The notes beneath the pieces are model-generated. The model saw nothing but the letters and a program-made list of their open reading frames with translations. It had not been told where the DNA came from and ran no database searches. Source: Proteobacteria bacterium UBA6156 (GTDB lineage: Bacteria > Pseudomonadota > Alphaproteobacteria > UBA2136 > UBA6156). From it: 64,000 nt of DNA. Below, in pieces: positions 8,458 through 48,868 of the stretch. How positions within the stretch are numbered: the first letter of the stretch is position 1; every line of letters starts with the position of its first letter. The stretch lies in NCBI GenBank assembly GCA_002422365.1, contig DIUO01000036.1, positions 38,759 to 102,758 on the forward strand, given 5' to 3'. Position numbers and translations under genes: made by a program.

Positions 8458-8557
8458 GCACCTCTCTTGATTGCCTGCGAAAGAAAGCCTTTAATGGGCT
8501 CACTTAAGCATGCGGTTTGCGCATGTGGCCGAGAGAACAATAAAGGAGGGGTGGGAG

Positions 8558-13746: not shown

Positions 13747-13749
13747 ACG

Positions 13750-15690: not shown

Positions 15691-15780
15691 GGCATCATGC
15701 CAGCTTCCCCTAGGCGAAGGGGGGGCGATTGAGGCAACATGCAGTCAGCGTCTGTGGTGTGCAGCAGGGGTCGGTAGGGC

Positions 15781-17724: not shown

Positions 17725-17728
17725 CGCC

Positions 17729-18817: not shown

Positions 18818-18859
18818 CATGAAACACACGCAACACACGCCGCAATCCAGGGGTTTCCC

Positions 18860-20212
18860 ATGCCTTTAACCGTTCTCTCCCGTCGTTCTGTCGTCTACCG
18901 CGAAAGTGGCTCCGGCGAGGTCACCGTCCTGCTGGTGCCAGGGCGCGAGCAAGTCCAGGTCATCAAAGACCTCGCCGGTCTCGGCAAAACCGCCGTGCCC
19001 GCGCGCGAGGGTGCCACCAGCGCCAACGCGGTGCAAAGCAAGCAAGCGCCGCTCACCCGCGTGTTTGTTGGGCGCCGGTTTATCTACGGCACCCTGCCGA
19101 CCGAAATCTCCGACCTCCGCCAACCCGTCCGCGTCTGGCTGGCTGAAGATTTCGTCCCCGCCCAGTGCCAGGCCTTCTTCTTCATTTTCAGCACCGAGGT
19201 CGTCGTCCACGGCGTGCGCGAGCAAGACGACGAAGGCCAGCTCAACTGGCGCACCGCCCAGCTGTCGCTGTCCGAGGGCGATCCCATCAAGAGCATCATC
19301 GACGCCATCAGCGACTACGCCCTGGCCAACAGCACCGAAACACTCACCATCGCGGTGCAAAAGCTCGATCTCTACGAAAAAATGCAAGCGGGCCTGGCCA
19401 CCTACAGCATCAGCCCCATTCCGTTCAGCAAGCTCAAGCCGCAGCCGGGCCTCAAGCCGCTCTACCGCCACCGAGACTTCACCATTCTCTACCTCACCAT
19501 GGCGCTGTTCGGCCTCATCACCGTCATGGCCAGCGGGGGTTATATGCTCATGGCCCTGCTCGAGCGTAACCGGCTCGACGAAGAAGCCGCCAGCATCCGC
19601 CGCAACATCAATTCCATCAAGCTCAACCAGAACGTCGGGCAAATCGCCAACCCGCAAGAGCTGCTGCAACGCATGAACCGCGGCATCAACCAGCAGCCAT
19701 CCGCCATCATCCATGCCGCAGCCGAGGCTGCCGCCGAACTCGGCAGCCTGGAAAACCTGCAAGTGGTGTTCGAAGGCAGCAATTTCGCAGGCCTGGCGCT
19801 GGATGCCATCGAAGCCGGCCAGCTCGGTGCCGTGGCCCAAATTACCGAAATGAAAGACGAACTGCTGCTCGACCAGGAGCAAACCGCCAGCGACAGCGTC
19901 GCCCTCAAGCCCTGGATCCGCTCCTTCGTGCGCGGCGGCAGCGTTGGCCTGCAAGGGCAGGTGGGTATGGTGCTGCAAATCGACCAACCCCCCGGAACCG
20001 AACCTCCAGTCACCGAGCCCCCAGTCGCCGAACCGCCCGTCACCGAAGCGCCTCCGGCCCCAGTCGCGGTTACCGAGCCCGTGCCCGCCGCCGCACCCAT
20101 ATCCGCCGACGGCGCCACGGTCAGCGGCACCGCCGAGGTCTCGTCCACCGCGCCCCTGCCGGAAGGTGACCAACCGGAAGCCCCAACACCGAACGAGGAG
20201 GCCCCGCAATGA
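18860..20212 (+). CDS. bitopic assembly protein (GspL/PilM-PilN-like architecture) with C-terminal TEPPV repeat tail
   Basis: 450 aa. An ~210-aa cytoplasmic domain, a single TM (FTILYLTMALFGLITVMASGGYMLMAL), a periplasmic domain, and a C-terminal Pro-rich repeat tail. ATGA overlap with the next gene. Confidence 0.5.
   Translation: MPLTVLSRRSVVYRESGSGEVTVLLVPGREQVQVIKDLAGLGKTAVPAREGATSANAVQSKQAPLTRVFVGRRFIYGTLPTEISDLRQPVRVWLAEDFVPAQCQAFFFIFSTEVVVHGVREQDDEGQLNWRTAQLSLSEGDPIKSIIDAISDYALANSTETLTIAVQKLDLYEKMQAGLATYSISPIPFSKLKPQPGLKPLYRHRDFTILYLTMALFGLITVMASGGYMLMALLERNRLDEEAASIRRNINSIKLNQNVGQIANPQELLQRMNRGINQQPSAIIHAAAEAAAELGSLENLQVVFEGSNFAGLALDAIEAGQLGAVAQITEMKDELLLDQEQTASDSVALKPWIRSFVRGGSVGLQGQVGMVLQIDQPPGTEPPVTEPPVAEPPVTEAPPAPVAVTEPVPAAAPISADGATVSGTAEVSSTAPLPEGDQPEAPTPNEEAPQ
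19996..20055 (+). repeat. in-frame 15-bp tandem repeats encoding (T/A)EPPV x4
   Basis: The units accgaacctccagtc / accgagcccccagtc / gccgaaccgcccgtc / accgaagcgcctccg are directly visible. Confidence 0.7.
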
Positions 20213-20781
20213 ACCGCAGCACCTACCGGAATATCATGATCGCCGTGCTGCTGATCTGTTTCGGCGTGGCCTATTATCTCTTCACCACCTCGCAAACCTA
20301 CCAGGTGCAAATCCAGCAGCGCACCAACGAGATCATCCGCCTCAATCAGGAATTTGAAAACGCCCAGAACCTGAACGTCGCACTCACCGAGCTCGACAAC
20401 CTCACCATTACCGAGCAAACCGCCACCCAGCTCGACATCCTGCGCCACCTGGGGCTCGAAAACAGCGAACTCACCTTCCAGCTGGAGGCCCGCGACGTGC
20501 AGGCCATCGGCCCGTCGTCGCTCTATGTCCATACCGTCGCCATATCCGGCAATATGCCCTATGCCGAGGCTCTCGCCCTCTGCGACCGGCTGCAGAACAC
20601 CAAGAAAATCGTCATCACCGCCATCGAGGTGCGTGGTCCGCCCTCCGGCACCACCCAGGATACCGTCGATCTGCGCGTCGTCGGCCTCATCTATGGGTTA
20701 GAAAAAGTCATTCCGCCGCTCGATATGCTGCCATTGCCCGGCAACACCGAAACCGCCCCCTCGCAAGGAGACCCCGCATGA
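20209..20781 (+). CDS. bitopic inner-membrane protein, GspM/PilO-like candidate
   Basis: 190 aa with an N-terminal TM (IMIAVLLICFGVAYYLF) followed by a coiled-coil/periplasmic domain. ATGA overlaps at both ends. Confidence 0.45.
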   Translation: MNRSTYRNIMIAVLLICFGVAYYLFTTSQTYQVQIQQRTNEIIRLNQEFENAQNLNVALTELDNLTITEQTATQLDILRHLGLENSELTFQLEARDVQAIGPSSLYVHTVAISGNMPYAEALALCDRLQNTKKIVITAIEVRGPPSGTTQDTVDLRVVGLIYGLEKVIPPLDMLPLPGNTETAPSQGDPA

Positions 20782-21359
20782 AGCTGATGCCCGCCTTTAT
20801 CCTGGTGCTGGCGCTGGTGGCTGCCCCGGCCGCCCACGCGCAAGAGGGCCTGCTCTGGAAAGTCAACAGCCGCTACCAGGCTACCGTTGTGCCGCCTTAT
20901 ATGGGCCAGCCCAACCCCTTCGCGGGCGGGGGAGAGGTTAAGGTCTCCGAAACCGGCGTGCTGGAAGAAGAGGCCCAAGCCCTGCGCGAGCGTCAGCAAA
21001 CCATCGACGAAGCCACCCAGCTCCTCAATTCCTCCCGGGCGTTCGAACCCTATCTCGACGGCATGGCCGTCGGCGGAGTGGTCGAAGGCGCACAAGGCCG
21101 CCGCGTGCTTATCGGCAACAACTGGGTGGGCGTCGGCATGGAGCTCAACGTCCGCCTCAGCATCTCCCCCCAAGCGCAAGAGGCTCTCGCCCGCATCGAG
21201 CCCCTCGACAGCGAAACGGCCCTCAGCATGCGCCGCTCGCTCGACGAACGCCGCGCCCGGGTGCCCACCACCCGCCTGAAGTTGCTCGAAATCGGCGAAA
21301 AAAACCTGGTATTCCAAGGCGATAATGGACGCCACACCTTGCCGATGCACTTCCATTAA
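20778..21359 (+). CDS. periplasmic protein with cleavable signal peptide (PilP/GspC-like candidate)
   Basis: 193 aa. Signal sequence MKLMPAFILVLALVAAPAAHA. Its position after the GspL/GspM-like genes suggests the PilP/GspC role. Confidence 0.4.
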   Translation: MKLMPAFILVLALVAAPAAHAQEGLLWKVNSRYQATVVPPYMGQPNPFAGGGEVKVSETGVLEEEAQALRERQQTIDEATQLLNSSRAFEPYLDGMAVGGVVEGAQGRRVLIGNNWVGVGMELNVRLSISPQAQEALARIEPLDSETALSMRRSLDERRARVPTTRLKLLEIGEKNLVFQGDNGRHTLPMHFH

Positions 21360-21447
21360 CCGGCGGAGAGGTGCCATTGCCCCTGTCAGGCGCAGGCGCT
21401 GGCACTCCACCCTATAAGACAAGACAGAAAGGATACCACCGGCCGAG

Positions 21448-22413
21448 ATGCAAGCGCTGTTTCTCATATCGTTGTTTACCTTCGTCATCGCGCTCATGAC
21501 CAGTTTCATCGTGTCCGGAACCTTCAACGCCGCCCAGCTCACCAAGCAACGCCTCGACGACACTTTCCGTTATTTCGAATCCATGGCCGAAGTCATCCGT
21601 GCCGAAGTCACGCAAGAGAACATGCACGGCAATCCCGGCACTTATGCAACTATTCCCCAATATATCAGCAATATGCCCACGGTAGCCGCCATGTCCAGCG
21701 GCATTTATGGCAACGCCGCCACCGACGCCTGGGGCCGCGAGATCACCGGCGCCATGCTCACCCGCTACATGCGGTTCAGCGCCCCGTCCGACAGCAACCA
21801 GGTGCTCAGCGTCCCCGTAACCGCCTTCGCCTTTGTCTCCGGCGGGCCCGATGGCCAGGTCCAAACCACCCTGCCGTCCGCCCCCACCCAACTCTCCGAT
21901 ATCCTCAACATTGCCGCCCCCACCGACGCTCAGGGCAACCCGACCACCGACGACATCGTCTACACCTTCGACAACCGCCGCGAGATGATGCTGATCATCG
22001 AAGACATCAAAGGCCACGCCTCAAAAGTCGGTGTCACCGCCCTTAAAAAATTCCAGGCCGATATGGCCACCTTCCGCGACCAACAACTGGCCGACTACCG
22101 CGCCGCCATTGTGGCGGGCCAAACCGTCTCACCGCCCAGCATGGATTTCTCCAACAACCCCAACGCCCCGCGCCTTCCGGCCGTCGATGTCAGCAGCACC
22201 CAGGCCCTGCTCGGTATTTTCGAAGATGTTGAAGCCATCGAACGCATCCTGCCCAGCGGCGGCAGGCTGGTGTTATCGTCCAACACGCCGAATATGGCCA
22301 ACCCCAACCTCGTCATTACCGTCCGCAACCATACCACCAACCCCACACCGCTGGGCCCGGGGGCCAGTTTTCTCTACACCCTCATCATTCAACCCGACAA
22401 AGACATCAATTAA
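21448..22413 (+). CDS. membrane-anchored protein with pilin-like hydrophobic N-terminus (atypical; possible minor pilin)
   Basis: 321 aa. The N-terminus MQALFLISLFTFVIALMTSFIVSGTF is hydrophobic but lacks the G/F/E5 prepilin signature. It lies directly upstream of the bona fide prepilin gene. Confidence 0.4.
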   Translation: MQALFLISLFTFVIALMTSFIVSGTFNAAQLTKQRLDDTFRYFESMAEVIRAEVTQENMHGNPGTYATIPQYISNMPTVAAMSSGIYGNAATDAWGREITGAMLTRYMRFSAPSDSNQVLSVPVTAFAFVSGGPDGQVQTTLPSAPTQLSDILNIAAPTDAQGNPTTDDIVYTFDNRREMMLIIEDIKGHASKVGVTALKKFQADMATFRDQQLADYRAAIVAGQTVSPPSMDFSNNPNAPRLPAVDVSSTQALLGIFEDVEAIERILPSGGRLVLSSNTPNMANPNLVITVRNHTTNPTPLGPGASFLYTLIIQPDKDIN

Positions 22414-22426
22414 CGGAGACCACCTC

Positions 22427-23587
22427 ATGACACGCACCCGCATCCTTCCCACTCTTCGCAGCAACAAAGGCTTCTCGCTGATCGAAATGGTCATCACCGT
22501 CGCGGTGCTCGCCATTCTGGTCGGTATTACCACCCCCTCCATCTACGAATTCATCCGCATGCGCGACAAACAGAACGAAGAAATCGCCCAAATGCAGGTG
22601 CGCAAAGCGCTCGAGGCCTATATCGCCGATGTCGGCGAAGCCCCCAGCGACACCTCCACCTCGCCCTTCTGGTACGAGGCTCTCGCCGGTTACACCAGCC
22701 TTTCGCAAAACGAAATCGCCAACGATGTCTGGGACAACCCCCGCACCTACATCATGTACCGCGACGCCAACCGCGGCATCTACGGCGTCAGCGTCACCGT
22801 CAGTTACGTCACCCTGCACAGTATGGGCCCCGACGGCCAGGCCGACAACCAGGAAGACCAGAACGGCACCACCGTCACCGTCAACGGTGTTGCACTCACC
22901 TCGGCGGCGGGCGGTTCGGTGTTCAACGGTAGCACCGCTGCCGACTGGTGGAAAAACAAGTCCGACCCCGCCCAGGCCTTTGCCGACGTGCGCGGTGCCG
23001 ACGACGACGTGATGATGCGCTACACCAACTACGACGACGTGCGCATCCGCTACCAAACCACCAGCGAACGCATCCGCGCCGTCGGTGATGCCCTCGAGAC
23101 GTTTGCCCGCACGCAATATGCGGCTCACATCAGTGAATGTATCGCAGTGACCACCTCCACAACAAAGTGTACGGGTAACGGCAACCCGAACAGCGGAATC
23201 CCTGTTGCCGCCATTTATTATCCAAGATCCATCCCCATAAGCGGCAGTTCCGATACGGCTCGATATTATTATTCCGAATACGTCCCGGCGACCAATTTCG
23301 TGCCGTCAACGGCGGCGACGGTGAACAACACCAGCACCGATGCCAATCGGCGCGAGGATATGATAGACCTTATGCGCATGTTGGGCTTACCGGCAGATTA
23401 TTGCTGTTCGGCTTTGGAACTGGGCACCGACAGCAAACCTAAGCCATTCTACTACTTCAGCAACCCCCGCGTTCGGCTGGCTTCGGGTTGCAGTTCCAGC
23501 CGTCCCACCGGTTCCGAACCCAAACTCCCGGCGCGCATAACCACCGGTAACTTTGCCGACAGCAGCAGCAACCGCACCTGCGGTTAA
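22427..23587 (+). CDS. type IVb prepilin (class III signal peptide), large 386-aa pilin/minor pilin
   Basis: Internal ATG of ORF 22031..23587. A 15-aa basic leader MTRTRILPTLRSNKG is followed by FSLIEMVITVAVLAILVGI (Gly-1, Phe+1, Glu+5, N-methyl-type helix). A Cys pair lies in the C-terminal region. Confidence 0.8.
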   Translation: MTRTRILPTLRSNKGFSLIEMVITVAVLAILVGITTPSIYEFIRMRDKQNEEIAQMQVRKALEAYIADVGEAPSDTSTSPFWYEALAGYTSLSQNEIANDVWDNPRTYIMYRDANRGIYGVSVTVSYVTLHSMGPDGQADNQEDQNGTTVTVNGVALTSAAGGSVFNGSTAADWWKNKSDPAQAFADVRGADDDVMMRYTNYDDVRIRYQTTSERIRAVGDALETFARTQYAAHISECIAVTTSTTKCTGNGNPNSGIPVAAIYYPRSIPISGSSDTARYYYSEYVPATNFVPSTAATVNNTSTDANRREDMIDLMRMLGLPADYCCSALELGTDSKPKPFYYFSNPRVRLASGCSSSRPTGSEPKLPARITTGNFADSSSNRTCG

Positions 23588-23605
23588 GCGGCAGGGGCGG
23601 GGCCT

Positions 23606-23965
23606 ATGCTCACCGAGACACTCGCCTTCTACCCGGCGGCAGCCAAGGCCATTGCCCTGCATTGGCCTTGGTTCTGGCCGTTATGGGGCGGGGTCATGGG
23701 TGCGGTGCTGGGGTCGTTTCTCAACTGTGCCCGCTACCGCGTGCCGCGCGGCATTTCGTTGCGCCGCCCCCCCAGCCATTGCCCGGCCTGCAAAACGGTG
23801 CTGGGCGTGCCCGACCTCGTGCCCGTCCTCAGCTACCTGGCCCTGCGTGGCCGCTGCCGCCATTGCCGGGCACCCATCGGCCGCACCAGCCTGTGGCTGG
23901 AGGTCGCGCTGTTTACCGGCGGCTACCTGCTCACAGCCCTGTTCCAGGCTTGGCTGCTGGCCTAA
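23606..23965 (+). CDS. prepilin peptidase N-terminal zinc-ribbon domain only (TM1-CxxC...CxxC-TM2); catalytic A24 domain absent
   Basis: 119 aa. The pattern GSFLN..R....SHCPACKTVL...LVPVLSYLALRGRCRHCRAPI is typical of the PilD/TcpJ N-domain. The ORF stops at 23965 and the next clear gene starts in another frame. Confidence 0.55.
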   Translation: MLTETLAFYPAAAKAIALHWPWFWPLWGGVMGAVLGSFLNCARYRVPRGISLRRPPSHCPACKTVLGVPDLVPVLSYLALRGRCRHCRAPIGRTSLWLEVALFTGGYLLTALFQAWLLA

Positions 23966-24070
23966 GCTCTGGGGGCGGTGCCGAATTCCCACAGCCCGCC
24001 GCGCCAAAACCGCCTTTCCGCCCGCACCGCCTTAACAAAGCCCGCTGCACACGGCACACTTGCATCCAGC

Positions 24071-25720
24071 ATGCTGCCTGTCCGCGCCCGTTCTCGTACC
24101 GCCCTTGGCCTCACCTTGGTCGGCTTGGCTGTGGCCGCGCCCGTGCAGGCCCCCGTGCAGGCACAGGTTGCCTGGCAGAACGTGGCCGCCGCCCAAAGCA
24201 CCGCCGCTTACGCCCCCCTGCAAACGCCCGTGGTGCAAAAAGGCACGGTGTTGTGGCGCCGTTTGGGCAACGAATCCGAGCGCACCCCCACTCCCGCCGT
24301 CAGCGACGAAATCGAACGCCTCCAGCAGGCGCTGCAAGCCACCTCCCAGCAGCTGGCGGGGCTAGAGCAAAAAATCGACAGCACCGCCGACCTCCGCACC
24401 CAAACTGCCGCCACCGTCACCAATGTCACCTCTCTGGCGCAAGAGAGCATCCGCGCCATGGAACGCATGGCCGAGCAAACCGCCGCCACGACCGACCTCA
24501 AACTCTCCAAGGCCCAGCTGGAAAACCGGCTCGCCGTTGTCGAAGAAGCCCGCCTGGCCGCCAAAGACGCCGAAGACCGCGCCCGAGCCTACACCGGCGC
24601 CCAAATTGCCGAACTGCGCAACCTCGCCCAGACCGAAACCGCCAACGTCGCCGCCGCCCTGCGCATTTATGCCGACCTCCAGCTGGCGCAGGCCCAAGCC
24701 ACAACCTCCGCCACCTTGGCCAACCTCGCCCAGGCCACCCGCCAGTCGGTCACCGACCTCGACCAACGCACCAACCAGCGCATGGGCGTGCTCTGGCAGG
24801 CCGCCAACATCCAGGCGGAAAAACTGGCAAACGAGAAAGCCGCCGCCGTGGCCGCCAGCCTCGCCGCACTCCAGCAGCAAACCGCCGCCGACAAACTCGA
24901 ACCCGCGCAAATCCGCGCCATTGCCGAGCAAACCGTGGCCAACTCCGCGCCAGAGTTCCGCGCCCTCGCCCTTCAAACGCTTAAAGATGGCCAAGATTAC
25001 ATCCGCAGCGTCGCCCGCAGTGCGGTGCAAGATGCCGACCCCGGCATGACCGCCGCCCTGGCCAACGCCGCGCGCGATGTCATCACCAAAGACGACAAAG
25101 TCGTCTTCGCCATCCGCAAAGCGGTGGCGGAAGAACTGCAAGGCCTGGCCACCGGGGCCACCGCCACCACCACACCCGACGGCCGCACGGTGCTGGGGCC
25201 CGACCACGGCAGTGGCACACCCGAGGTCGAGCTCGATCCCAACCGCCTGCGCATCGCCCAGCTGTTGGCGCCGGAAGGCGGACTCGCCCCGGACGCCGCC
25301 CTCACTCCCGCCCAACTGGCGGCCCTCAGCCCCGCCGCAGGCCCGGCGCAAGGCCATACAGCGGTTGGCGGCCAGCAGGCCTGGTCGGCGCAGGGCACCA
25401 GCCTGTTGCGCCCGCGCCCGCGCAGCAGCTGGATGGACCTGCGCCAATACAAAGTCGTGCTCCACCAAGACAACCAGACGCTGGAAGAGCTGCTCGCCGA
25501 CATCCTCAAGCGGGCTGAACCCTTTACCGGCCCCTGGCAGGTGCGCTGGAAGATCACCGAACCCAACCGCGACCTCATGCAAGAACGCTTCAGCCTCGAT
25601 GCCGAAGCCCCGTTCGAAGAGTTCATCAGCTATCTTGCGCAATATATTGTCAACGATAGAGGCGTTAAACTCAGCGTAAGCCTGTTCGACAGCGAACGGA
25701 TTATTGTAATCTCCGATTAA
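24071..25720 (+). CDS. secreted coiled-coil protein with C-terminal STN/TcpQ-like domain
   Basis: ORF 23978..25720. The ATG at 24071 gives the signal sequence MLPVRARSRTALGLTLVGLAVAAPVQA. A long Ala/Gln-rich coiled-coil region follows. The C-terminus (LEELLADILKRAEPFTGPWQVRWKI...IIVISD) is paralogous to the C-termini of ORFs 12400 and 25720. Confidence 0.55.
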   Translation: MLPVRARSRTALGLTLVGLAVAAPVQAPVQAQVAWQNVAAAQSTAAYAPLQTPVVQKGTVLWRRLGNESERTPTPAVSDEIERLQQALQATSQQLAGLEQKIDSTADLRTQTAATVTNVTSLAQESIRAMERMAEQTAATTDLKLSKAQLENRLAVVEEARLAAKDAEDRARAYTGAQIAELRNLAQTETANVAAALRIYADLQLAQAQATTSATLANLAQATRQSVTDLDQRTNQRMGVLWQAANIQAEKLANEKAAAVAASLAALQQQTAADKLEPAQIRAIAEQTVANSAPEFRALALQTLKDGQDYIRSVARSAVQDADPGMTAALANAARDVITKDDKVVFAIRKAVAEELQGLATGATATTTPDGRTVLGPDHGSGTPEVELDPNRLRIAQLLAPEGGLAPDAALTPAQLAALSPAAGPAQGHTAVGGQQAWSAQGTSLLRPRPRSSWMDLRQYKVVLHQDNQTLEELLADILKRAEPFTGPWQVRWKITEPNRDLMQERFSLDAEAPFEEFISYLAQYIVNDRGVKLSVSLFDSERIIVISD

Positions 25721-27255
25721 TGATGCGCCTCACACCCCGCCGTGCCCTGTTTGCCGCCACCACCTTGCTGGCGGGCTGCGCGGGCATGGGGCAGCAGGCC
25801 GCCAGTGGCGGTTTTCCGGCCCCGCAGCCGAACGACGGCGGCATCGTCATCGCCGAGTCCCACATGGTCATGGGCGCGTCGGATGCCACCACCGTCACCG
25901 GCACCGTCGACGATTGCTCCGGCCCCGGCACCGGGGTGGTGGTCACCAGCACCCTGCACGACGCCCGCTTCCTCTTCGGCCCCAATGGCGAACCCTGCGA
26001 GGCCGCCGAAATGCTCTTCGATGGCCGCACCGAGGCCAACCGCCGCCAGGCCGACCCCGCCATTGCGCTCACCTTCCACGACAGCTTGGGCCCCAAGCCA
26101 GAAAGCCGCACCACCAGCTCGCTCCCCGGCCTCGAACCCATCCCCACCATCCGCCTGAAGTCGGAAATTCTCAGCACCATGGCGGCCATAGAACCCGCCG
26201 CCGGCAAGGGCGGCACCGTCCCGGCCCGCCCGGCCCCGGTGCAAGTGGCTGCCGTCAAAGCCGACCCTCTGGTCTCCACCCTCACCAGCTGGCAACGCCA
26301 AGACGACGCTTACGCCCGCCGCAGTGCCCAGGCCAATGCCAATGCCGAGGCCACCGCCGCCGCCAGCCGTGACCTCTCCCATATCGTGAAGGACACCCGC
26401 ACCACCACCAGTGCCGAAGCCATGGCCACCATGATGGCCGAACTCCGCGAGCGCGAACGCCAGGTGCAGGAAGAACAGCGCCGCCACGCCGAAACCCTCA
26501 AGCGTGCCCAAGAAAACCGCCAAATCACCGCCGCCGCCCGCACCCAATGGCAAAGTAAGGAGCACGAGCTCCAGGCCCAGCTCTCTGCCACCCAGCAGCG
26601 CATGGCGCAGTTCGAGCAACTCGCCCAGCGCCTGTCAGCCGACAAATCCGCCAAAGAGCAAGCCTATCAGGCCAAAATCAGCACCCTCACCGCCGACCTC
26701 CGCGCCGCCGAAGCCCAGGCCGATGTCTCACGGCGCGAGCTGATACTCGAAGCCGCCGCCAAAATTGCCGAAGCCGAGCAACTCGCCTCCGCCGCCAAAA
26801 TCCAGGAGCAACAGATCAAACTGCGCGAGGCCGCCCGCCTCAAGGCCGAAGCCGAAACCATGATGGACCGCGCCCTGGCCATGCAGGCTGGCGGCAATGT
26901 GGTGGTGGCCGGGGTGGGCGCCCCGCCCGCCGTGCCGCTGGCGCTGCTGCGCACGCCGGTGGCGGTGGTCGCCAACGGTAAATCGCTGCCGGATATCCTC
27001 ACCGACGTCCTCAAGCAGGCCGCCCCCCAGGCAGGCGAGTGGCAGGCCGACTGGCAATTGTCCGTCCCCCGCCAGCATATTTTGCAAGATACCTGGTCGC
27101 TCACCGCCGAAGCGCCGATCGAAGAGGTCCTCGCCCAGCTCAGCCAACAAGTCCAGGCCGCCCACGGCTTCGGCCTCACCTTCACCCAGTTCGCCCAGTC
27201 CCGCCTGCTGGTTGTCACCGATGCCACACCCCCCACCGCCCAAACCACCCCCTAA
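25720..27255 (+). CDS. lipoprotein with long coiled-coil region and C-terminal STN/TcpQ-like domain
   Basis: 511 aa. Lipobox LLAGC. An A/Q/E/R-rich coiled coil in the middle. The C-terminus LPDILTDVLKQAAPQAGEWQADWQL...LLVVTD is paralogous to the previous gene. The start overlaps the upstream stop (TAATG). Confidence 0.55.
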   Translation: MMRLTPRRALFAATTLLAGCAGMGQQAASGGFPAPQPNDGGIVIAESHMVMGASDATTVTGTVDDCSGPGTGVVVTSTLHDARFLFGPNGEPCEAAEMLFDGRTEANRRQADPAIALTFHDSLGPKPESRTTSSLPGLEPIPTIRLKSEILSTMAAIEPAAGKGGTVPARPAPVQVAAVKADPLVSTLTSWQRQDDAYARRSAQANANAEATAAASRDLSHIVKDTRTTTSAEAMATMMAELRERERQVQEEQRRHAETLKRAQENRQITAAARTQWQSKEHELQAQLSATQQRMAQFEQLAQRLSADKSAKEQAYQAKISTLTADLRAAEAQADVSRRELILEAAAKIAEAEQLASAAKIQEQQIKLREAARLKAEAETMMDRALAMQAGGNVVVAGVGAPPAVPLALLRTPVAVVANGKSLPDILTDVLKQAAPQAGEWQADWQLSVPRQHILQDTWSLTAEAPIEEVLAQLSQQVQAAHGFGLTFTQFAQSRLLVVTDATPPTAQTTP

Positions 27256-27329
27256 CAGGCAAATTCTTACAAACCCCTTGCAAACCTGCAATACCGCCCC
27301 ATAATCAGTATATCAAAGGAGATAAACTC

Positions 27330-27701
27330 ATGAATCAACGTACACTTCTCTTCAGCGCCGCCGCCGTGGCTGTCATGGCCCTCGCCGTCGCCAACCCCGC
27401 TTTTGCTCAGTCCGGTGGTGAAGCAGCTACAGCAGGGGCTGCTGCTGTCGATACACTTGTTGGTGCCATTACCGGTAACATCGGTTTGCTCATCGGTTTG
27501 GCCATTACTGTGGCGGGCCTCTGGGTCTGGATCATCGGTCAGAAAACCGGCGCTGGCCTCACTATGGTCATCGGTGGTGTACTCATCACCATGGCTCCGG
27601 GTTTGTTCAAGGGCGTCCGCGATATGGCCGTCGGTGTGGTAGGTCAATTCAGCGGATCAACAGTCTATGATGTTGACACCGCACGAGGTACGACTCGTTA
27701 A
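27330..27701 (+). CDS. VirB2/TraA/TrbC-like conjugative pilin precursor, copy 1
   Basis: 123 aa. RBS aaggag 8 nt upstream. Signal sequence ending AFA, then two hydrophobic helices separated by a short GQKTG loop. Confidence 0.6.
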   Translation: MNQRTLLFSAAAVAVMALAVANPAFAQSGGEAATAGAAAVDTLVGAITGNIGLLIGLAITVAGLWVWIIGQKTGAGLTMVIGGVLITMAPGLFKGVRDMAVGVVGQFSGSTVYDVDTARGTTR

Positions 27702-27708
27702 TCCAAGT

Positions 27709-28032
27709 ATGAACCTTCTCGGCAAAACCCTGGCAGTATGTGCGGCACTCCTTCTGAGTGCCGCTTCTGCCTATGCTGCCGAGACTTCCGACGTTGGTAA
27801 AGTCGAAGTAGAACTGCTGGTCAACATCTTCACCGGCAACATCGGCCTCGTTATTGGCTTCATCGTCACCATCATGGGCGTGTTTATGTTCATCAAGGGC
27901 GACAGCGGCGGTGCTGTCTACGTCGTCGTGCTGGGTGTGCTCATTACCATGCTTCCAGGCATTTACAATGGTTTAAGGCTTATTTTGTGCCCCATTGCCG
28001 AATCCCTCGGCGGCCAGTGTGGTGGCGGCTAA
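27709..28032 (+). CDS. VirB2/TraA/TrbC-like conjugative pilin precursor, copy 2
   Basis: 107 aa. Signal sequence ending AYA, two hydrophobic helices separated by KGDSGG, and a C-terminal Cys pair (CPIAESLGGQC). Same architecture as the upstream paralog. Confidence 0.6.
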   Translation: MNLLGKTLAVCAALLLSAASAYAAETSDVGKVEVELLVNIFTGNIGLVIGFIVTIMGVFMFIKGDSGGAVYVVVLGVLITMLPGIYNGLRLILCPIAESLGGQCGGG

Positions 28033-28036
28033 CGCC

Positions 28037-28306
28037 ATGCAAATGCGCGCCGTCCCCCGGAATATCGACAAACCCAACCGCACGCCGGAATACGCCGTAT
28101 CCTTCCTCTCCACTTACTACCTCACCCTATTTATCCTCAGCAAACCCCTTGTAGCTTTGTTGGCAGGTGCTCTTGCCACCTATGTTATGTATAAACTCAC
28201 GCTGGATAAACCCGAAGGCCTCGCCATGCGCTTGGCCTACCGCCACGTCAAGTTCGGCAAAATGCGCCCGGGGCCCAAGCACGCCCCCAAGCTGGAAGTC
28301 TCCTAG
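28037..28306 (+). CDS. small single-TM protein, TraL/VirB3-like by size and position
   Basis: 89 aa (F TraL is 91 aa), one TM. It sits immediately after the pilin genes, as in the F tra order traA-traL-traE-traK-traB. Confidence 0.45.
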   Translation: MQMRAVPRNIDKPNRTPEYAVSFLSTYYLTLFILSKPLVALLAGALATYVMYKLTLDKPEGLAMRLAYRHVKFGKMRPGPKHAPKLEVS

Positions 28307-28434: not shown

Positions 28435-29091
28435 ATGGACTTTGTCGCACGCGCCGGTGCCGTTATCGACCGCGCCCACCGGGTAGCGGGCATTTTGCTG
28501 ATGTGCGTGCTGGTATTGGGGCTGGTGTCCACCTGCCAGCTTGTCAAAAACCAGCAACTGCAGGCCGAGATGAACGCCGCCCGCATCCGCTACCCGGTCA
28601 TTGTGGTGCCCGACGCCACCACCGGGGTCTACAGCCCCACCGAAGAAGACCGCCTCATATTCCTCTTTGCCGACTACGTCACCCAATCGCTCAATTCCTA
28701 TACACCCGAGAACATGAGCCGCCTCTATACCGACCTCCGCCCTTTCATGGGCCCGGCCCTGCAGGTCGACTCCGCCCCCCACTTCGAGCGTAAAATCCGC
28801 ACCACCGTCTCCGACCGCCGCTCCTCGTTCTTCGTGCCCGACCGCACCCAGGCCCCGAAAGTGGAAAAACGCCGCGTCAACGGGGTCGAGTTCCGCGATG
28901 TCGCCCTTGTCGGCCAGCTCAACAGCATGGTCGGCGGCACCCTGGCCGAGTCCACCCCGGTCGAGTACCAGATGACCTTCCAGAAGGTTTTCGCCAGCCC
29001 CAGCAACCCCTATGGCTTCCTGCTCACCAAATATGTCGAGAAACTGCTGCTCGACCCCAACAAAGCCCCGCAACTCCGCGCCCAACCCTAA
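28435..29091 (+). CDS. bitopic inner-membrane protein, TraE/VirB8-like by size and position
   Basis: ORF 28411..29091. The ATG MDFVARAG is preceded by the RBS aaggaga. One N-terminal TM plus an ~180-aa periplasmic domain (F TraE is 188 aa). Confidence 0.45.
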   Translation: MDFVARAGAVIDRAHRVAGILLMCVLVLGLVSTCQLVKNQQLQAEMNAARIRYPVIVVPDATTGVYSPTEEDRLIFLFADYVTQSLNSYTPENMSRLYTDLRPFMGPALQVDSAPHFERKIRTTVSDRRSSFFVPDRTQAPKVEKRRVNGVEFRDVALVGQLNSMVGGTLAESTPVEYQMTFQKVFASPSNPYGFLLTKYVEKLLLDPNKAPQLRAQP

Positions 29092-29112: not shown

Positions 29113-29838
29113 ATGCGCCACGCCCTCATCCTCCTCGCCCTCCTCGCCGGGGCCTTCACCGTTGTCACTCCGCTGCTGGCCGACACCCTCGTCTGGCGCA
29201 GCCCCACCAAGCCGCTCACCATCGGGCTGTCCACGTCAGACTACACCCAGGTGATGTTCCCCGAGCCCATCAAGGCCGTGACACTTGAAAACCCCAGCTA
29301 CATCGACGGCAAACCCTTGGACGGCTACAACGGCCAGGCCATCATGTTCCAGTCCTTGCTGCCCAAAATGGCCACGCGCGGCTTCTTTGTAGGCCAGAGC
29401 GGCAACACCTACATCCTCATTCTCACCACCGACGTCCCCTACCGCACCTATATCGAAATTGTCGACGGCGTCGCCCTCAAACAAATGAAAGAAAGCATCG
29501 CCTCGCAAATGGCCCCGCACGACCTCGTCCGCGCCATGGCGATGGATGCCGACGTGGCGGGCATCACGCGCGAAACCTACGTCATTCCCAACTGGTTCCG
29601 GGGCAGCGGGATGACCTTCGACCTCTCCGAAGTCTGGCAATCGCCCACCATGACCGGCCTGGTGGTGCATGTGCGGAACGAAAACCCCACCCCGAACGAG
29701 GTCAACCTGCCCGCAGTGGTCATCCCCCAAACGTCCGAGTGGGGCAACCTGCGCTTTGCCAGCATGGAAAATCTCCGCCTGGCGCCCGCCGGCCAACCGA
29801 ACGACAAAGGCGTGCTGTTCCTCATCTTCCTGCGCTAA
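29113..29838 (+). CDS. periplasmic protein, TraK/VirB9-like by size and position
   Basis: 241 aa with a signal peptide (F TraK is 242 aa). Beta-rich composition. Its position between the TraE-like gene and the later TraB-like gene matches the F order. Confidence 0.5.
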   Translation: MRHALILLALLAGAFTVVTPLLADTLVWRSPTKPLTIGLSTSDYTQVMFPEPIKAVTLENPSYIDGKPLDGYNGQAIMFQSLLPKMATRGFFVGQSGNTYILILTTDVPYRTYIEIVDGVALKQMKESIASQMAPHDLVRAMAMDADVAGITRETYVIPNWFRGSGMTFDLSEVWQSPTMTGLVVHVRNENPTPNEVNLPAVVIPQTSEWGNLRFASMENLRLAPAGQPNDKGVLFLIFLR

Positions 29839-29943
29839 CTGCGTGGCAGCAAGGGAGCCAACGTGGCAAAAACCCCGCGCAGCCCAACCTCTATGCGGCC
29901 TTTCCCCTTGGCAAACCGGGCACACCGCCCCTATAACAGTGTC

Positions 29944-30705
29944 ATGAACCTTTCTCGGGTCGTGCTGGCATGCTGCTTTATCGCCGCCATAAGTATGGCG
30001 TGGCCCGCGCGTGCCGACTACGACAACGACCCCTTCGACCCCCTCATAGCCCGCGACGCCTGGATGCTCATCGCCCGTGCCGAGCGGGAAAACGAAATCC
30101 CGGCAGGCCTGCTGCACGCCATGAGCTTAGTGGAAACCGGCAAAGGTATCCGCGGCTGGGTGCTGCCCTGGCCCTACACGGTCGGGGTCAACGGCACCGG
30201 CACGCAGCGCTTCACCAGCCGAGACGAAGCCCTCGCCGCTCTCAGCCGCTACCGCAAGCTCGGCTTTGTGCGCTACAACCTCACCGCCCAGGGGGTGCGC
30301 CTCAGCAAGGCCACCTCGGTGCAGGTCGCGGCGGCGCTCGGCGGGCTTCCGGCCAGCAGCGTCATCACGCTGGAAGGCATCAATTTCGGCCGCCGCTTCA
30401 ACAGCGAGACTGAAGCCGCCACCTTCCTCCGCAACATGTTCGCCCAGGGCTACCGCAATGTCGATGTCGGCATGATGCAAATCAACTGGCGCGTCCACAG
30501 CCAGCACTTCCGCAGTATCGAAGACGCCCTCAACCCTTCCACCAACCTCAACTACGCCGTGCGCTACTTGCTGGAGCACCGCCAAACCCGCGACTGGTGG
30601 GGCTCGGTCGGCCGTTACCACAGCGGCACCAGCCGCTACGCTAGCCGCTATATTCGTAATGTTTACAACATGTACCTTCGCATCCACCGGGTGAGCACCA
30701 GCTGA
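29944..30705 (+). CDS. lytic transglycosylase (SLT domain; VirB1/PilT(R64)-like role)
   Basis: ORF 29863..30705. Start at MNLSRVV (29944) with a signal sequence. SLT motifs AMSLVETG, DVGMMQINWRVH, NLNYAVRYL. Confidence 0.8.
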   Translation: MNLSRVVLACCFIAAISMAWPARADYDNDPFDPLIARDAWMLIARAERENEIPAGLLHAMSLVETGKGIRGWVLPWPYTVGVNGTGTQRFTSRDEALAALSRYRKLGFVRYNLTAQGVRLSKATSVQVAAALGGLPASSVITLEGINFGRRFNSETEAATFLRNMFAQGYRNVDVGMMQINWRVHSQHFRSIEDALNPSTNLNYAVRYLLEHRQTRDWWGSVGRYHSGTSRYASRYIRNVYNMYLRIHRVSTS

Positions 30706-35039: not shown

Positions 35040-35079
35040 CACTTGTCAAATGGCCTTTCCCGCACCAAACTTTAAGAAG

Positions 35080-48859: not shown

Positions 48860-48868
48860 GGTCGGGCT

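What the first reader, a model, noticed from the sequence alone, without database searches (positions are those of the whole stretch)
22427..28032. Two different filament-subunit classes encoded 4 kb apart: a class-III-signal (type IV) prepilin and two tandem VirB2/TraA-like pilins
The locus encodes both a T4P-type pilin (needing a prepilin peptidase, GspE-type ATPase and platform) and two paralogous VirB2-like propilins. These have long signal peptides ending AFA/AYA and two hydrophobic helices; they are 123 and 107 aa, and copy 2 ends with a Cys pair. Tandem VirB2 duplications are uncommon. Carrying both subunit classes suggests either two distinct surface filaments or one composite apparatus.
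Basis: partly seen in the sequence, partly recalled or inferred. Interest (0 to 1): 0.6.

Follow-up and report, generated by a model that had tools for sequence, protein, structure and literature searches.

The report
Type IV pilus beside conjugation-type pilins
An uncultured alphaproteobacterium carries, fixed in its chromosome, a type IV pilus gene set directly followed by a very divergent conjugation-type secretion system with two tandem VirB2-like pilins; pairing the two filaments is already known from IncI plasmids and PAPI-1-type islands, but this lineage-wide, relaxase-less chromosomal version is new.

Summary
22427-23587 encodes a 386-aa type IV prepilin (leader MTRTRILPTLRSNKG|FSLIEM; N_methyl above threshold). 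27330-27701 and 27709-28032 encode 123- and 107-aa paralogs (45% identity): a Sec signal ending AFA or AYA, two hydrophobic helices, and in copy 2 a C-x9-C pair. Copy 1 passes Pfam TrbC/VirB2. Copy 2 falls just below threshold.

The prepilin closes a type IVb-like pilus module: TcpQ-like protein, secretin, GspE ATPase, GspF platform. The two small pilins sit in the traA slot ahead of traL-traE-traK...traB-traV-traC.

The best reading is two machines and two filaments serving one contact-dependent transfer process, as in R64/TP114 and PAPI-1. That makes the principle known.

What is unusual:
- The system occurs only in uncultured alphaproteobacterial MAGs. TraC is 58-91% identical within the clade, and the next relatives are at about 25%.
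- It appears vertically inherited and, in relatives, is scattered among housekeeping genes.
- No relaxase, integrase or tRNA site was detected.
- There is no small major pilin, and only a stand-alone N-terminal domain of prepilin peptidase.
- The number of VirB2-like paralogs varies from 1 to 3.

Verdict: a new variant of a known kind, of moderate interest.

The parts
5238..6293 (+). Thioredoxin-fold TraF/TrbB-like periplasmic protein with a CPFC active-site motif
   Evidence: Pfam TraF PF13728 (E=2.4e-7) plus Thioredoxin domains. The CPFC motif was read in the translation. A homologue lies in plasmid pOS401.
6730..8142 (+). Type IV coupling protein (TraD/TrwB-like, 470 aa)
   Evidence: Pfam TraG-D_C (E=7.3e-10) and TrwB_AAD_bind. 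It is 28% identical to the pOS401 homologue, E=1e-45.
12400..13746 (+). PilL-like protein with a TcpQ-like C-terminal domain; first gene of the pilus module
   Evidence: Pfam TcpQ E=2.6e-4, below the cut-off. It is conserved at the head of the module in L021 and L022.
13750..15690 (+). Secretin (STN plus Secretin domains)
   Evidence: Pfam Secretin 70.5 bits and STN 35.8 bits.
15781..17724 (+). GspE/PilB-type assembly ATPase
   Evidence: Pfam T2SSE 230.8 bits. It is at most 37% identical to plasmid GspE/PulE proteins.
17729..18817 (+). GspF/PilC-type platform protein
   Evidence: Pfam T2SSF 85.1 bits.
18860..22413 (+). Four conserved pilus-module genes of unknown family (450, 190, 193 and 321 aa). 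They are the fastest-evolving genes of the cluster. The 321-aa protein starts with a hydrophobic helix but has no prepilin motif.
   Evidence: No Pfam or NCBIfam match. They are syntenic in L005, L007, L014, L015 and L020-L022 at 20-65% identity.
22427..23587 (+). Large type IV prepilin (386 aa, 15-residue leader, G-1/F+1/E+5, Cys-rich C-terminus ending TCG)
   Evidence: N_methyl and TIGR02532 score above their cut-offs, and there is a weak GspG-like match over residues 14-144. The family has 48 members, all 341-425 aa, with invariant G15, F16 and E20. The AF2 model has pLDDT 89, with an alpha1 helix at 18-69 followed by a beta-sheet.
23606..23965 (+). Stand-alone N-terminal domain of prepilin peptidase (A24_N, 119 aa); the catalytic domain is absent
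   Evidence: Pfam A24_N_bact 90.1 bits and no Peptidase_A24 match. It is conserved as a 112-157-aa ORF in L005, L020, L021 and L022. pN is 0.23 against pS 0.59.
24071..25720 (+). Coiled-coil secreted protein CC1 with a TcpQ-like C-terminal domain (the ORF opens at 23978)
   Evidence: It shares an 83-residue C-terminal domain with CC2 at 35% identity, E=2e-17. It stays with the pilus module when the modules are split.
25720..27255 (+). Coiled-coil lipoprotein CC2 (lipobox LLAGC) with a TcpQ-like C-terminal domain
   Evidence: In L020 its C-terminus also aligns with the PilL-like protein.
27278..27305 (+). Promoter-like site in the 74-nt gap ahead of pilin 1 (TTGCAA-16-CATAAT); an AAGGAG Shine-Dalgarno sequence follows
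   Evidence: Consensus scan, 9 of 12 matches. The SD was read. This is weak evidence.
27330..27701 (+). T4SS pilin 1 (TrbC/VirB2 family, 123 aa), probably the major subunit
   Evidence: PF04956 33.1 bits against 27.9. The secondary structure predicted by a low-confidence AF2 model (pLDDT 62.5) is a signal helix plus two long helices, H33-70 and H73-107. The family has 22 close and 203 profile-level relatives.
27709..28032 (+). T4SS pilin 2 (paralog, 107 aa, C-terminal C-x9-C), probably a minor or alternative subunit
   Evidence: 45% identity to pilin 1, E=2e-16. PF04956 E=8e-5. The Cys pair is conserved in L005, L010 and L015 and absent in L009.
28037..28306 (+). TraL-like protein (VirB3 position)
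   Evidence: Pfam TraL E=0.013 for the window protein. Four family members hit TraL, best E=2.9e-4.
28435..29091 (+). TraE-like protein
   Evidence: TIGR02761 E=0.0026. Four family members hit Pfam TraE, best E=4.9e-10.
29113..29838 (+). TraK-like protein, assigned by position
   Evidence: The window protein has no HMM match. One sequence in the mixed set hit TraK_C at E=0.011, and the tool does not say which. It is homologous to the gene after traE in pOS401, E=4e-10.
29863..30705 (+). Lytic transglycosylase (SLT domain)
   Evidence: Pfam SLT 28.8 bits.
30705..32522 (+). UvrD-like helicase
   Evidence: Pfam UvrD-helicase 47.1 bits. A homologue sits next to the coupling protein in pOS401.
39191..40627 (+). 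TraB/VirB10-like protein (TrbI domain)
   Evidence: Pfam TrbI 44.2 bits.
40642..41118 (+). TraV-like lipoprotein, assigned by position (lipobox LAGC)
   Evidence: Translation. It lies between traB and traC, and this is conserved in L018 and L019.
41163..43760 (+). TraC/VirB4 ATPase
   Evidence: Pfam P-loop_TraG and TraC_F_IV. It is 21-25% identical to plasmid TraC. Within its own clade it is 58-91% identical.

Best explanation
The window holds two adjacent, same-strand gene modules for two different envelope machines that most likely cooperate in one contact-dependent transfer process.

Module 1 (12400-27255) is a type IVb-like pilus system. It contains a PilL/TcpQ-like protein, secretin, GspE-type ATPase, GspF-type platform, four unknown proteins, the 386-aa prepilin, an A24 N-terminal-domain protein, and two TcpQ-domain coiled-coil proteins.

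Module 2 (27330 to about 47500, plus a coupling protein and a thioredoxin-like protein at 5-8 kb) is a very divergent F-like type IV secretion system. Its pilin slot, directly ahead of traL-traE-traK, holds two Sec-exported TrbC/VirB2-family paralogs.

Inferred mechanism:
- The large prepilin is cleaved at G15|F16 by a peptidase encoded elsewhere in the genome.
- It is assembled into a pilus that attaches to and holds the partner cell.
- Pilin 1 forms the T4SS pilus or conduit. It is probably the major subunit, because it has its own promoter-like site and a strong SD.
- Pilin 2 is a minor or alternative subunit whose C-x9-C pair, predicted to be periplasmic, may be oxidised by the CPFC thioredoxin-like protein.

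The system is fixed in the chromosome and vertically inherited in a clade of uncultured Alphaproteobacteria. It is not a recently acquired mobile element. Its cargo is unknown. DNA is favoured because a coupling protein and a UvrD-like helicase are conserved parts of the system.

Shown: the gene identities, paralogy, synteny, conservation and vertical inheritance.
Inferred: filament assembly, the division of labour between the pilins, cooperation of the two machines, and the cargo.
For: Gene identities:
- Pilin paralogy is E=2e-16.
- The pilin family falls within TrbC/VirB2: 32 of 106 profile-search homologues hit PF04956 and no other family recurs.
- For the prepilin, G-1, F+1 and E+5 are invariant in 39 homologues, and the AF2 model is confident (pLDDT 89) with an alpha1 helix plus beta-sheet.

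Synteny:
- The order pilus genes - A24_N - CC1 - CC2 - pilin(s) - traL - traE - traK - SLT - uvrD recurs in L005-L007, L014, L015, L020 and L021. This holds down to 31% prepilin identity.
- At least eight metagenomic contig lengths are shared between prepilin and TraC hits. That points to co-location, but contig identity was not checked.

Selection:
- All genes tested show pN far below pS.

Separable machines:
- In the L010/L022 lineage the pilus module ends after CC2, and the pilin-traLEK module sits elsewhere among housekeeping genes.

Vertical inheritance:
- In L019 the same flanking sugar-metabolism and EndoIII genes are present at 60-71% identity, while TraC is 80% and g46613 is 85%.
- In L018 traB-traV-traC lies between yidC/rnpA/tsaD and flagellin/ruvAB.
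- The window has no tRNA gene and no detected integrase.

Plasmid ancestry:
- pOS401 carries homologous traL/E/K/B/C, traF-like, coupling-protein and uvrD genes.
- The same plasmid carries pilus ATPases, a PilS-like pilin and a large minor pilin.

Precedent:
- Cooperation of a type IV pilus with a T4SS is shown for TP114 (PMC9045228) and PAPI-1 (PMC5297154).
Against: - No filament has been observed and no expression data exist.
- The pilin AF2 model has low confidence (pLDDT 62.5). Foldseek against the PDB gave no significant match for either model.
- Profile searches of the PDB did not retrieve solved VirB2 or TraA pilins.
- Pilin 2 alone is below the Pfam gathering score.
- No small PilS-like major pilin and no complete prepilin peptidase are encoded in the window. 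How the pilus is built and processed is therefore open.
- No relaxase, no oriT, and no recognisable TraW/U/N/H were found. DNA transfer is therefore unproven.
- The GspG-like match of the prepilin leaves room for a secretion pseudopilus.
Confidence: 0.6

Rival explanations
1. One composite apparatus. The pilus-type and T4SS-type components form a single machine, for example by sharing the secretin or TcpQ-domain outer-membrane parts, and both subunit classes end up in or on one filament.
For: - The two modules are tightly adjacent on one strand with short gaps, and this adjacency is conserved down to 31% prepilin identity.
- Three TcpQ-domain proteins are present, two of them exactly at the junction.
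- There is no small major pilin for the pilus module.
Against: - In the L010/L022 lineage the two modules lie at separate loci, and CC1 and CC2 stay with the pilus module.
- Each module has its own ATPase: GspE-type and TraC/VirB4.
- The two subunit classes use different export and assembly routes. One has a class-III signal and needs a platform; the other has a Sec signal and is extracted from the membrane.
- As far as I know, no precedent exists for mixed filaments.
Confidence: 0.1
2. Module 1 is not an extracellular pilus but a T2SS-like secretion machine. The 386-aa protein would be a pseudopilin piston that exports proteins needed by, or unrelated to, the T4SS.
For: - The best full-length HMM match of the prepilin is GspG, TIGR01710 E=3.4e-8 over residues 14-144.
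- Foldseek's only pilin-like match is the EHEC GspG structure 3g20_B.
- The ATPase is closest to plasmid GspE/PulE proteins.
- JGI calls some family members PulG.
Against: - The GspG score of 33.6 bits is far below the 88.85 cut-off.
- Only one canonical prepilin is present, with no GspH/I/J/K set, and no GspC/L/M were detected.
- TcpQ-like domains and a 15-residue leader point to type IVb pili.
- The related plasmid pOS401 has PilS-like and large minor pilins.
- The prepilin and its neighbours evolve fastest in the cluster, as expected of surface-exposed parts.
Confidence: 0.12
3. The whole region is an ordinary integrative conjugative element that still moves itself between cells. Its pilus acts as a mating-pair stabiliser exactly as in IncI plasmids.
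For: - A coupling protein, UvrD-like helicase, lytic transglycosylase and an F-like gene order are all present.
- The nearest annotated relative is on a plasmid.
Against: - No integrase, relaxase, tRNA gene or flanking repeats were found.
- Flanking housekeeping genes are syntenic and more diverged than TraC in L019.
- The modules are scattered among core genes in L010, L018 and L022.
- TraC identity falls from 54-58% within the clade to about 25% for everything else.
Confidence: 0.12
4. The two small proteins are unrelated two-TM membrane proteins, holin-like or otherwise, that only resemble VirB2 by composition.
For: - Pilin 2 is below the Pfam gathering score and has an insignificant Holin_BlyA match at E=0.087.
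- Hydrophobic hairpins produce spurious matches. The PDB profile search picked phage G8P, E=0.0037.
Against: - Pilin 1 exceeds the curated TrbC cut-off.
- 32 of 106 family homologues hit TrbC and no other family recurs.
- The position immediately ahead of traL-traE-traK is invariant across at least 12 loci.
- TraX, which Pfam assigns to PF05857 and which I recall as the F-pilin acetylase family, sits next to the single pilin in L020.
Confidence: 0.03

Closest known systems
IncI1/IncI2 plasmids (R64, TP114): thin type IVb pilus PilL-PilV plus a conjugative T4SS
   Same: - One element encodes both a type IVb pilus and a T4SS with its own pilus. The pilus set has a PilL/TcpQ-like protein, secretin, GspE-type ATPase, platform and a large pilin.
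- In TP114 the pilus stabilises mating pairs in liquid and the large PilV pilin is the adhesin (PMC9045228).
   Different: - Here no PilS-like small major pilin, no shufflon, and no complete PilU peptidase were found.
- The gene order differs.
- The T4SS here is F-like (TraL/E/K/B/C). From memory, the IncI T4SS is of the Dot/Icm-related MPF_I type.
- The system here is chromosomal and vertically inherited.
PAPI-1 / pKLC102-type ICEs: conjugative type IVb pilus plus a GI-type T4SS
   Same: A chromosomally integrated element carries a type IVb pilus needed to start transfer by binding the recipient surface (PMC5297154).
   Different: - None of the NCBIfam families that I recall marking GI-type (ICEHin1056/ICEclc) T4SS proteins matched the proteins scanned.
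- No integrase or tRNA attachment site was found.
- The carriers are uncultured Alphaproteobacteria rather than Gammaproteobacteria.
F-type T4SS (gene order traA-traL-traE-traK-traB-traV-traC)
   Same: - The gene order matches: pilin slot, then TraL, TraE, TraK ... TraB, a lipoprotein, TraC.
- A TraF/TrbB-type thioredoxin-fold protein is present.
- TraX is present in relative L020.
   Different: - The pilins match TrbC/VirB2 (PF04956) rather than F TraA.
- TraW, TraU, TraN and TraH were not detected.
- TraC is only 21-25% identical to plasmid TraC.
- SLT, UvrD and three large unknown genes are inserted between traK and traB.
Bartonella Trw (trwL tandem copies) and Anaplasmataceae VirB2 paralog families
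   Same: Tandem duplication and divergence of the VirB2-type pilin gene within a chromosomal T4SS. In Bartonella this is interpreted as variation of surface-exposed pilus subunits (PMC2610397). Anaplasma is covered in PMC3556328.
   Different: - Here there are only 1-3 copies, with an old and stably inherited split into a Cys-free type and a C-x9-C type. It is not a recent variable array.
- The T4SS backbone here is F-like. Trw is colinear with the R388 Trw conjugation system (PMC2610397), which I classify as P-type.
Rickettsiales vir homolog (rvh) T4SS
   Same: A lineage-wide, chromosomally fixed T4SS of Alphaproteobacteria, described as enriched with gene duplication (PMC4676284) and evolutionarily conserved (PMC2653234). 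From memory, its genes are also scattered over the chromosome.
   Different: - rvh is derived from the Agrobacterium vir type (PMC2653234).
- As far as I know, rvh has no linked type IV pilus and serves effector translocation in obligate intracellular bacteria.
- The lifestyle of the present hosts is unknown.
Plasmid pOS401 of Comamonadaceae bacterium OS-4 (AP026971.1)
   Same: It is the closest annotated relative of the T4SS. Its traL, E, K, B, C, traF-like, coupling-protein and uvrD genes match at 23-34% identity. A pilus gene set lies directly upstream. PLSDB also types it as non-mobilizable.
   Different: - It is on a plasmid.
- It has one VirB2-like pilin.
- It has a PilS-like 201-aa pilin plus a 517-aa minor pilin.
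- It has no detectable homologue of the 386-aa prepilin or of CC1 and CC2.

Membership tests
TrbC/VirB2 pilin family (Pfam PF04956) | Profile match at or above the curated gathering score | tested here: met
   Pilin 1 scores 33.1 bits against 27.9. Pilin 2 alone scores 23.2 bits and does not pass, but it is a clear paralog of pilin 1 (E=2e-16). Most close homologues carry PF04956 in the precomputed annotation.
TrbC/VirB2 pilin family (Pfam PF04956) | Cleavable N-terminal signal peptide followed by two hydrophobic helices joined by a short polar loop | tested here: met
   AxA sites at PAFA|Q and SAYA|A. Hydropathy segments and AF2 secondary structure give H3-21, H33-70 and H73-107 with the loop at Q71-K72. 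No dedicated signal-peptide predictor was available.
TrbC/VirB2 pilin family (Pfam PF04956) | Gene lies within a T4SS assembly cluster (next to VirB3/TraL and VirB4/TraC) | tested here: met
   It lies directly upstream of TraL-, TraE- and TraK-like genes, with TraB and TraC downstream. This is conserved in at least 12 loci.
TrbC/VirB2 pilin family (Pfam PF04956) | Three-dimensional similarity to solved conjugative pilins | tested here: inconclusive
   The AF2 model has pLDDT 62.5. Foldseek against the PDB gave no match at E<=0.001. Profile searches of the PDB did not retrieve T4SS pilins.
TrbC/VirB2 pilin family (Pfam PF04956) | Maturation by cyclisation or N-acetylation, and assembly into an extracellular pilus | not testable with these tools
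   No TraX or signal-peptidase-like maturase was found in the window. TraX is adjacent to the pilin in relative L020.
Type IV pilins / pseudopilins (class-III signal, N_methyl PF07963) | Prepilin leader ending in Gly, hydrophobic N-terminus with Glu at +5, and a profile match above the cut-off | tested here: met
   The motif is KG|FSLIEM. PF07963 scores 29.1 against 21.2 and TIGR02532 scores 28.1 against 16.3. G, F and E are invariant in 39 homologues.
Type IV pilins / pseudopilins (class-III signal, N_methyl PF07963) | Long N-terminal alpha-helix packed on a beta-sheet head domain | tested here: met
   The AF2 model has pLDDT 89 and pTM 0.78, with a helix at 18-69 and strands at 107-166. The rest of the head domain has no significant PDB match.
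Type IV pilins / pseudopilins (class-III signal, N_methyl PF07963) | Linked assembly machinery: secretin, GspE-type ATPase, GspF-type platform | tested here: met
   The three genes lie at 13750-18817, upstream on the same strand.
Type IV pilins / pseudopilins (class-III signal, N_methyl PF07963) | Cognate prepilin peptidase (A24 aspartic protease) encoded with the system | tested here: not met
   Only the 119-aa A24_N domain protein is present. No Peptidase_A24 match was found among the window proteins scanned. This does not exclude a peptidase encoded elsewhere in the genome.
IncI-type conjugative thin pilus (R64 PilL-PilV) | Small PilS-type major pilin plus a large PilV adhesin diversified by a shufflon | tested here: not met
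   There is only one canonical prepilin, of 386 aa. There are no meaningful inverted repeats at its 3' end, and its C-terminus is conserved.
F-type T4SS (MPF_F) | TraL, TraE, TraK, TraB, TraV and TraC core in that order | tested here: met
   - TraL and TraE are supported at the family level.
- The TraB TrbI domain and TraC_F_IV are detected.
- TraK and TraV are assigned mainly by position, a lipobox, and one weak TraK_C hit in the mixed set.
F-type T4SS (MPF_F) | F-specific proteins TraW, TraU, TraN, TraH and TraG, and an F-type TraA pilin | tested here: not met
   - No Pfam or NCBIfam matches to these families were found in the window.
- One weak TraG_N hit (E=0.012) came from a mixed set of relatives.
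- The pilins match TrbC, not TraA.
Integrative conjugative element | Integrase, relaxase/oriT, and defined ends (attachment site, often a tRNA gene) | tested here: not met
   No integrase or relaxase was found by Pfam, NCBIfam or PDB sequence search. There is no tRNA gene. The flanks are syntenic in L019. A novel relaxase among the unannotated ORFs cannot be excluded.

The most novel reading that the evidence does not exclude
The cluster is not a conjugation system at all. It is a lineage-defining, domesticated cell-to-cell interaction apparatus of an uncultured alphaproteobacterial clade. An F-like T4SS and a dedicated type IV pilus have been co-inherited as core genes, and TraC is more conserved than the neighbouring housekeeping enzymes. 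Their role would be to attach to another cell (prey, host or kin) and deliver or take up macromolecules, without any self-transfer.

The relaxase-less combination of coupling protein and UvrD helicase, the stand-alone A24 N-terminal domain protein, and the large sole pilin would then be adaptations of this new apparatus.
Probability: 0.3. Interest if true: 0.75.

Novelty: new variant of a known kind. Interest (0 to 1): 0.5.

Why it matters
Pairing a type IV pilus with a conjugative T4SS is known from enterobacterial plasmids and Pseudomonas islands, where it sets recipient range and allows transfer in liquid.

Here the same pairing has become a vertically inherited chromosomal feature of a whole clade of uncultured Alphaproteobacteria. 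It has been kept for long enough that its parts are dispersed among core genes, and it has no recognisable relaxase.

That would be a second alphaproteobacterial example, after the Rickettsiales rvh system, of a conjugation machine turned into a permanent organelle. This one is of F-like ancestry and has a dedicated pilus.

It also provides natural material for several questions:
- how VirB2-type pilin paralogs divide labour (Cys-free versus C-x9-C types, 1-3 copies);
- whether a pilus can be built from a 371-residue mature pilin alone;
- what a prepilin-peptidase N-terminal domain does on its own.

Tried and rejected
- **Structure matching of the pilins.** The AF2 model of pilin 1 had low confidence (pLDDT 62.5). 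Foldseek against the PDB returned only generic helical hairpins. PDB profile searches with 24- and 106-sequence alignments returned nothing relevant; phage G8P at E=0.0037 is a compositional match.
- **Search for a relaxase or integrase.** Pfam and NCBIfam scans of all large ORFs, and phmmer against the PDB for the 645-, 726- and 866-aa unknowns, found none.
- **Mobile-element ends.** There are no tRNA genes, no Rfam matches, and no meaningful direct or inverted repeats or shufflon.
- **TraX in the window.** It is absent.
- **Pilin relatives on plasmids.** tblastn found none at E<=1.
- **Host identity.** I considered a Micavibrio-like predator. The pilin pattern scan of one genome per GTDB species returned only MAGs, none labelled Micavibrio. 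The M. aeruginosavorus genome paper reports no T4SS (PMC3189940). Host taxonomy stays at 'uncultured Alphaproteobacteria'. The MAG labels 'Blastochloris viridis' and 'Pseudomonas fluorescens' are probably submitter mislabels.
- **Holin reading of the small proteins.** Rejected.
- **ParB-like motif.** A motif (DGERRIAAARAKG) seen by eye in the 801-aa HTH protein is not supported by any HMM, and I do not rely on it.

Full report
**1. Observation**

The prepilin, 22427-23587, encodes 386 aa.
- It starts MTRTRILPTLRSNKG|FSLIEMVITVAVLAILVG.
- Pfam N_methyl scores 29.1 bits against a cut-off of 21.2. NCBIfam TIGR02532 scores 28.1 against 16.3.
- A six-frame motif scan found no other canonical prepilin in the 64 kb.

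Pilin 1, 27330-27701, encodes 123 aa. It passes the curated threshold of Pfam TrbC/VirB2 (33.1 against 27.9 bits, E=6.5e-8).

Pilin 2, 27709-28032, encodes 107 aa.
- It scores 23.2 bits (E=8e-5), below threshold.
- It is 45% identical to pilin 1 over 67 residues (E=2e-16).
- An upstream ATG at 27667 would give 121 aa.

Both small proteins have an AxA signal-peptidase site (PAFA|Q, SAYA|A) and two hydrophobic helices. Copy 2 ends in a C-x9-C pair.

Three small corrections apply. The signal peptides are about 26 and 23 residues, which is not long. The prepilin and pilin 1 are 3.7 kb apart. A complete prepilin peptidase is not present.

**2. Context**

Almost every gene from about 5 kb to 47.5 kb is on the + strand and belongs to one of two modules.

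The pilus module contains, in order:

| Coordinates | Gene |
|---|---|
| 12400 | PilL-like protein with a weak TcpQ domain |
| 13750 | Secretin |
| 15781 | GspE-type ATPase |
| 17729 | GspF-type platform |
| 18860-22413 | Four proteins of unknown family |
| 22427 | Prepilin |
| 23606-23965 | 119-aa protein that is only the N-terminal domain of prepilin peptidase (A24_N, 90 bits) |
| 24071-25720 | Coiled-coil protein CC1 |
| 25720-27255 | Coiled-coil protein CC2 |

CC1 and CC2 share a TcpQ-like C-terminal domain.

The T4SS module contains, in order:
- the two pilins;
- TraL-, TraE- and TraK-like genes;
- an SLT transglycosylase;
- a UvrD-like helicase;
- an 801-aa HTH protein;
- two large unknown proteins;
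- TraB (TrbI domain);
- a lipoprotein in the TraV position (lipobox LAGC);
- TraC/VirB4;
- two more conserved unknown proteins.

A coupling protein (6730) and a thioredoxin-fold TraF/TrbB-like protein with a CPFC motif (5238) lie further upstream.

The TraL and TraE assignments are weak for the window proteins alone. They hold at family level: 4 members each hit Pfam, with best E=2.9e-4 for TraL and 4.9e-10 for TraE.

The pilins therefore occupy the traA slot of an F-like gene order.

**3. Are the small proteins really T4SS pilins?**

- A search of 5.8 billion proteins found 22 close relatives, most carrying PF04956.
- A profile search of 1.84 billion representatives found 203 relatives at E<=0.001.
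- Of 106 of these, 32 hit TrbC individually, and no other family recurs.
- The TGNIG motif, the QKTGAG loop and GGVLIT-P are conserved. The N-terminal stretch of the mature protein and the C-terminal tail vary.
- Structure comparison was uninformative. PDB profile searches did not retrieve solved pilins.

The holin alternative has no support.

**4. Conservation and copy number**

The tandem pair followed by traL-traE-traK recurs in ten genomes from a scan of one genome per species. All are alphaproteobacterial or unclassified MAGs.

Copy number varies across loci:

| Copies | Loci |
|---|---|
| 1, with a traX gene beside it | L020 |
| 2 | window and most loci |
| 3 | L015, L021 |

The Cys pair of the second type is conserved in L005, L010 and L015 and absent in L009.

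Between the window and L005, pN is far below pS for pilin 1 (0.20 against 0.62), pilin 2 (0.22 against 0.75), the prepilin (0.29 against 0.66) and the A24_N protein (0.23 against 0.59). All are therefore maintained by selection.

Identity between these two genomes is highest for machine parts and lowest for likely surface parts:

| Group | Protein | Identity |
|---|---|---|
| Machine parts | ATPase | 95% |
| Machine parts | TraK | 91% |
| Likely surface parts | Pilins | 70-73% |
| Likely surface parts | Prepilin | 56% |
| Likely surface parts | Two unknowns upstream of the prepilin | 40-44% |

**5. One apparatus or two?**

The order pilus genes - A24_N - CC1 - CC2 - pilin(s) - traLEK is kept even in L020, where the prepilin is only 31% identical. 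Eight or more contig lengths are shared between the prepilin and TraC hit lists.

In the L010/L022 lineage, however, the pilus module ends after CC2 and is followed by rsfS and ctpA. The pilin-traLEK module sits elsewhere, behind miaB, tsaB and trpS.

The modules are thus co-retained but separable, and CC1 and CC2 belong to the pilus module. This favours two machines that cooperate rather than one composite machine.

**6. Mobile element or chromosomal organelle?**

No integrase, relaxase, tRNA gene or boundary repeats were found.

TraC has about 85 clusters of relatives at 58-91% identity, all from uncultured Alphaproteobacteria, plus one partial sequence at 54%. Identity then drops to about 25% for ordinary TraC proteins.

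In L019 the same right-hand flank is present: glycosyltransferases, a nucleotidyltransferase, an epimerase and EndoIII. These are 60-71% identical, less conserved than TraC at 80%.

In L018 the traB-traV-traC block lies between yidC/rnpA/tsaD and flagellin/ruvAB.

This is the signature of a vertically inherited, chromosomally fixed system. Its ancestry is plasmid-like. The nearest annotated relative is plasmid pOS401 of a Comamonadaceae bacterium, which has:
- homologous traL/E/K/B/C, traF-like, coupling-protein and uvrD genes;
- pilus ATPases, a PilS-like small pilin and a 517-aa minor pilin just upstream.

**7. Mechanism proposed**

The identity and arrangement of the parts are shown. The rest is inferred by analogy with IncI plasmids and PAPI-1.

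There, a type IVb pilus with a large adhesin pilin binds the recipient and stabilises mating in liquid, while the T4SS transfers DNA (PMC9045228, PMC5297154).

Here the sole, large and fast-evolving prepilin would provide attachment. Pilin 1 would form the T4SS pilus or conduit, because it has its own promoter-like site and a strong SD. Pilin 2 would be a minor or alternative subunit whose C-terminal disulfide, predicted to be periplasmic, may depend on the CPFC protein.

The cargo is unknown. The conserved coupling protein and UvrD-like helicase favour DNA.

**8. Comparison with known systems**

The principle is known. Tandem VirB2 amplification is also known, from Bartonella trwL (PMC2610397) and Anaplasma (PMC3556328). 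A chromosomally fixed, duplicated T4SS is known from the Rickettsiales rvh system (PMC2653234).

What differs here:
- an F-like backbone with TrbC-type pilins;
- linkage to a pilus module that has no small major pilin and no complete peptidase;
- no recognisable relaxase;
- restriction to an uncultured clade.

I therefore rate it a new variant of a known kind, with moderate interest (0.5).

**9. Limits**

There are no expression or imaging data. The host taxonomy is unresolved. The pilin structural evidence is weak. A novel relaxase could be hidden among five unannotated conserved proteins.

Noticed in passing
window 23606-23965 (also L005 6237-6599, L020 12167-12640, L021 11123-11461, L022 11143-11451): There is a stand-alone prepilin-peptidase N-terminal domain protein (A24_N_bact, 90 bits; 112-157 aa). 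It keeps the CxxC...CxxC cysteines but has no catalytic A24 domain. It is conserved in every pilus module examined and is under purifying selection. Its function without the protease domain is unexplained.
   Followed up: partly
window 41163-43760; L018, L019: TraC/VirB4 of this system forms a closed clade: about 85 clusters at 58-91% identity, all from uncultured Alphaproteobacteria. The next relatives are at about 25%. TraC is more conserved than the adjacent housekeeping enzymes. In L018 the T4SS block sits between yidC/rnpA/tsaD and flagellin/ruvAB.
   Followed up: yes
window 4000-47500: No relaxase, integrase, tRNA gene or Rfam element was detected anywhere in or beside the T4SS region. 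Five conserved proteins of 297-866 aa have no family assignment: 8510-9442, 34951-36888, 37010-39190, 43898-46498 and 46613-47506.
   Followed up: partly
L020 15948-17014: In a distant relative there is a single VirB2-like pilin (110 aa), and a traX gene (Pfam PF05857) lies beside it on the opposite strand. The same locus has two tandem large prepilins and two TraE paralogs. No traX was found in the window.
   Followed up: partly
L015 10001-11200; L021 14566-15838: Two relatives carry three tandem VirB2-like paralogs instead of two, so the pilin array has expanded and contracted within the clade.
   Followed up: partly
window 47552-51908 and 58234-60468: A block of glycosyltransferase, nucleotidyltransferase and epimerase genes directly follows the T4SS, and this is syntenic in L019. 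It lies between the T4SS and a 744-aa flagellin gene. It could glycosylate flagellin or pilins.
   Followed up: no
window 1-64000: GC skew on the + strand is negative in 31 of 32 windows (cumulative -4.5), although nearly all genes are on that strand, so the coding strand is C-rich. GC content is 54-58% in the first 10 kb and 59-68% afterwards.
   Followed up: no
L017 (plasmid pOS401, AP026971.1, 67327-109690): This is a 305-kb Comamonadaceae plasmid annotated almost entirely as 'hypothetical' and typed non-mobilizable. It nonetheless carries a full pilus module plus an F-like T4SS related to the one here. It may be an unrecognised conjugative plasmid family.
   Followed up: partly
L007 (VAFM01000002.1), L012 (QFOU01000030.1), L009: Carrier MAGs are deposited under the names 'Blastochloris viridis', 'Pseudomonas fluorescens' and 'Pseudomonadaceae bacterium'. 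Yet L007 shares >=90% identical FliG and TraC with the window organism, and L009 and L012 carry the same T4SS locus (pilin 56-58% identical). These labels are probably wrong.
   Followed up: no
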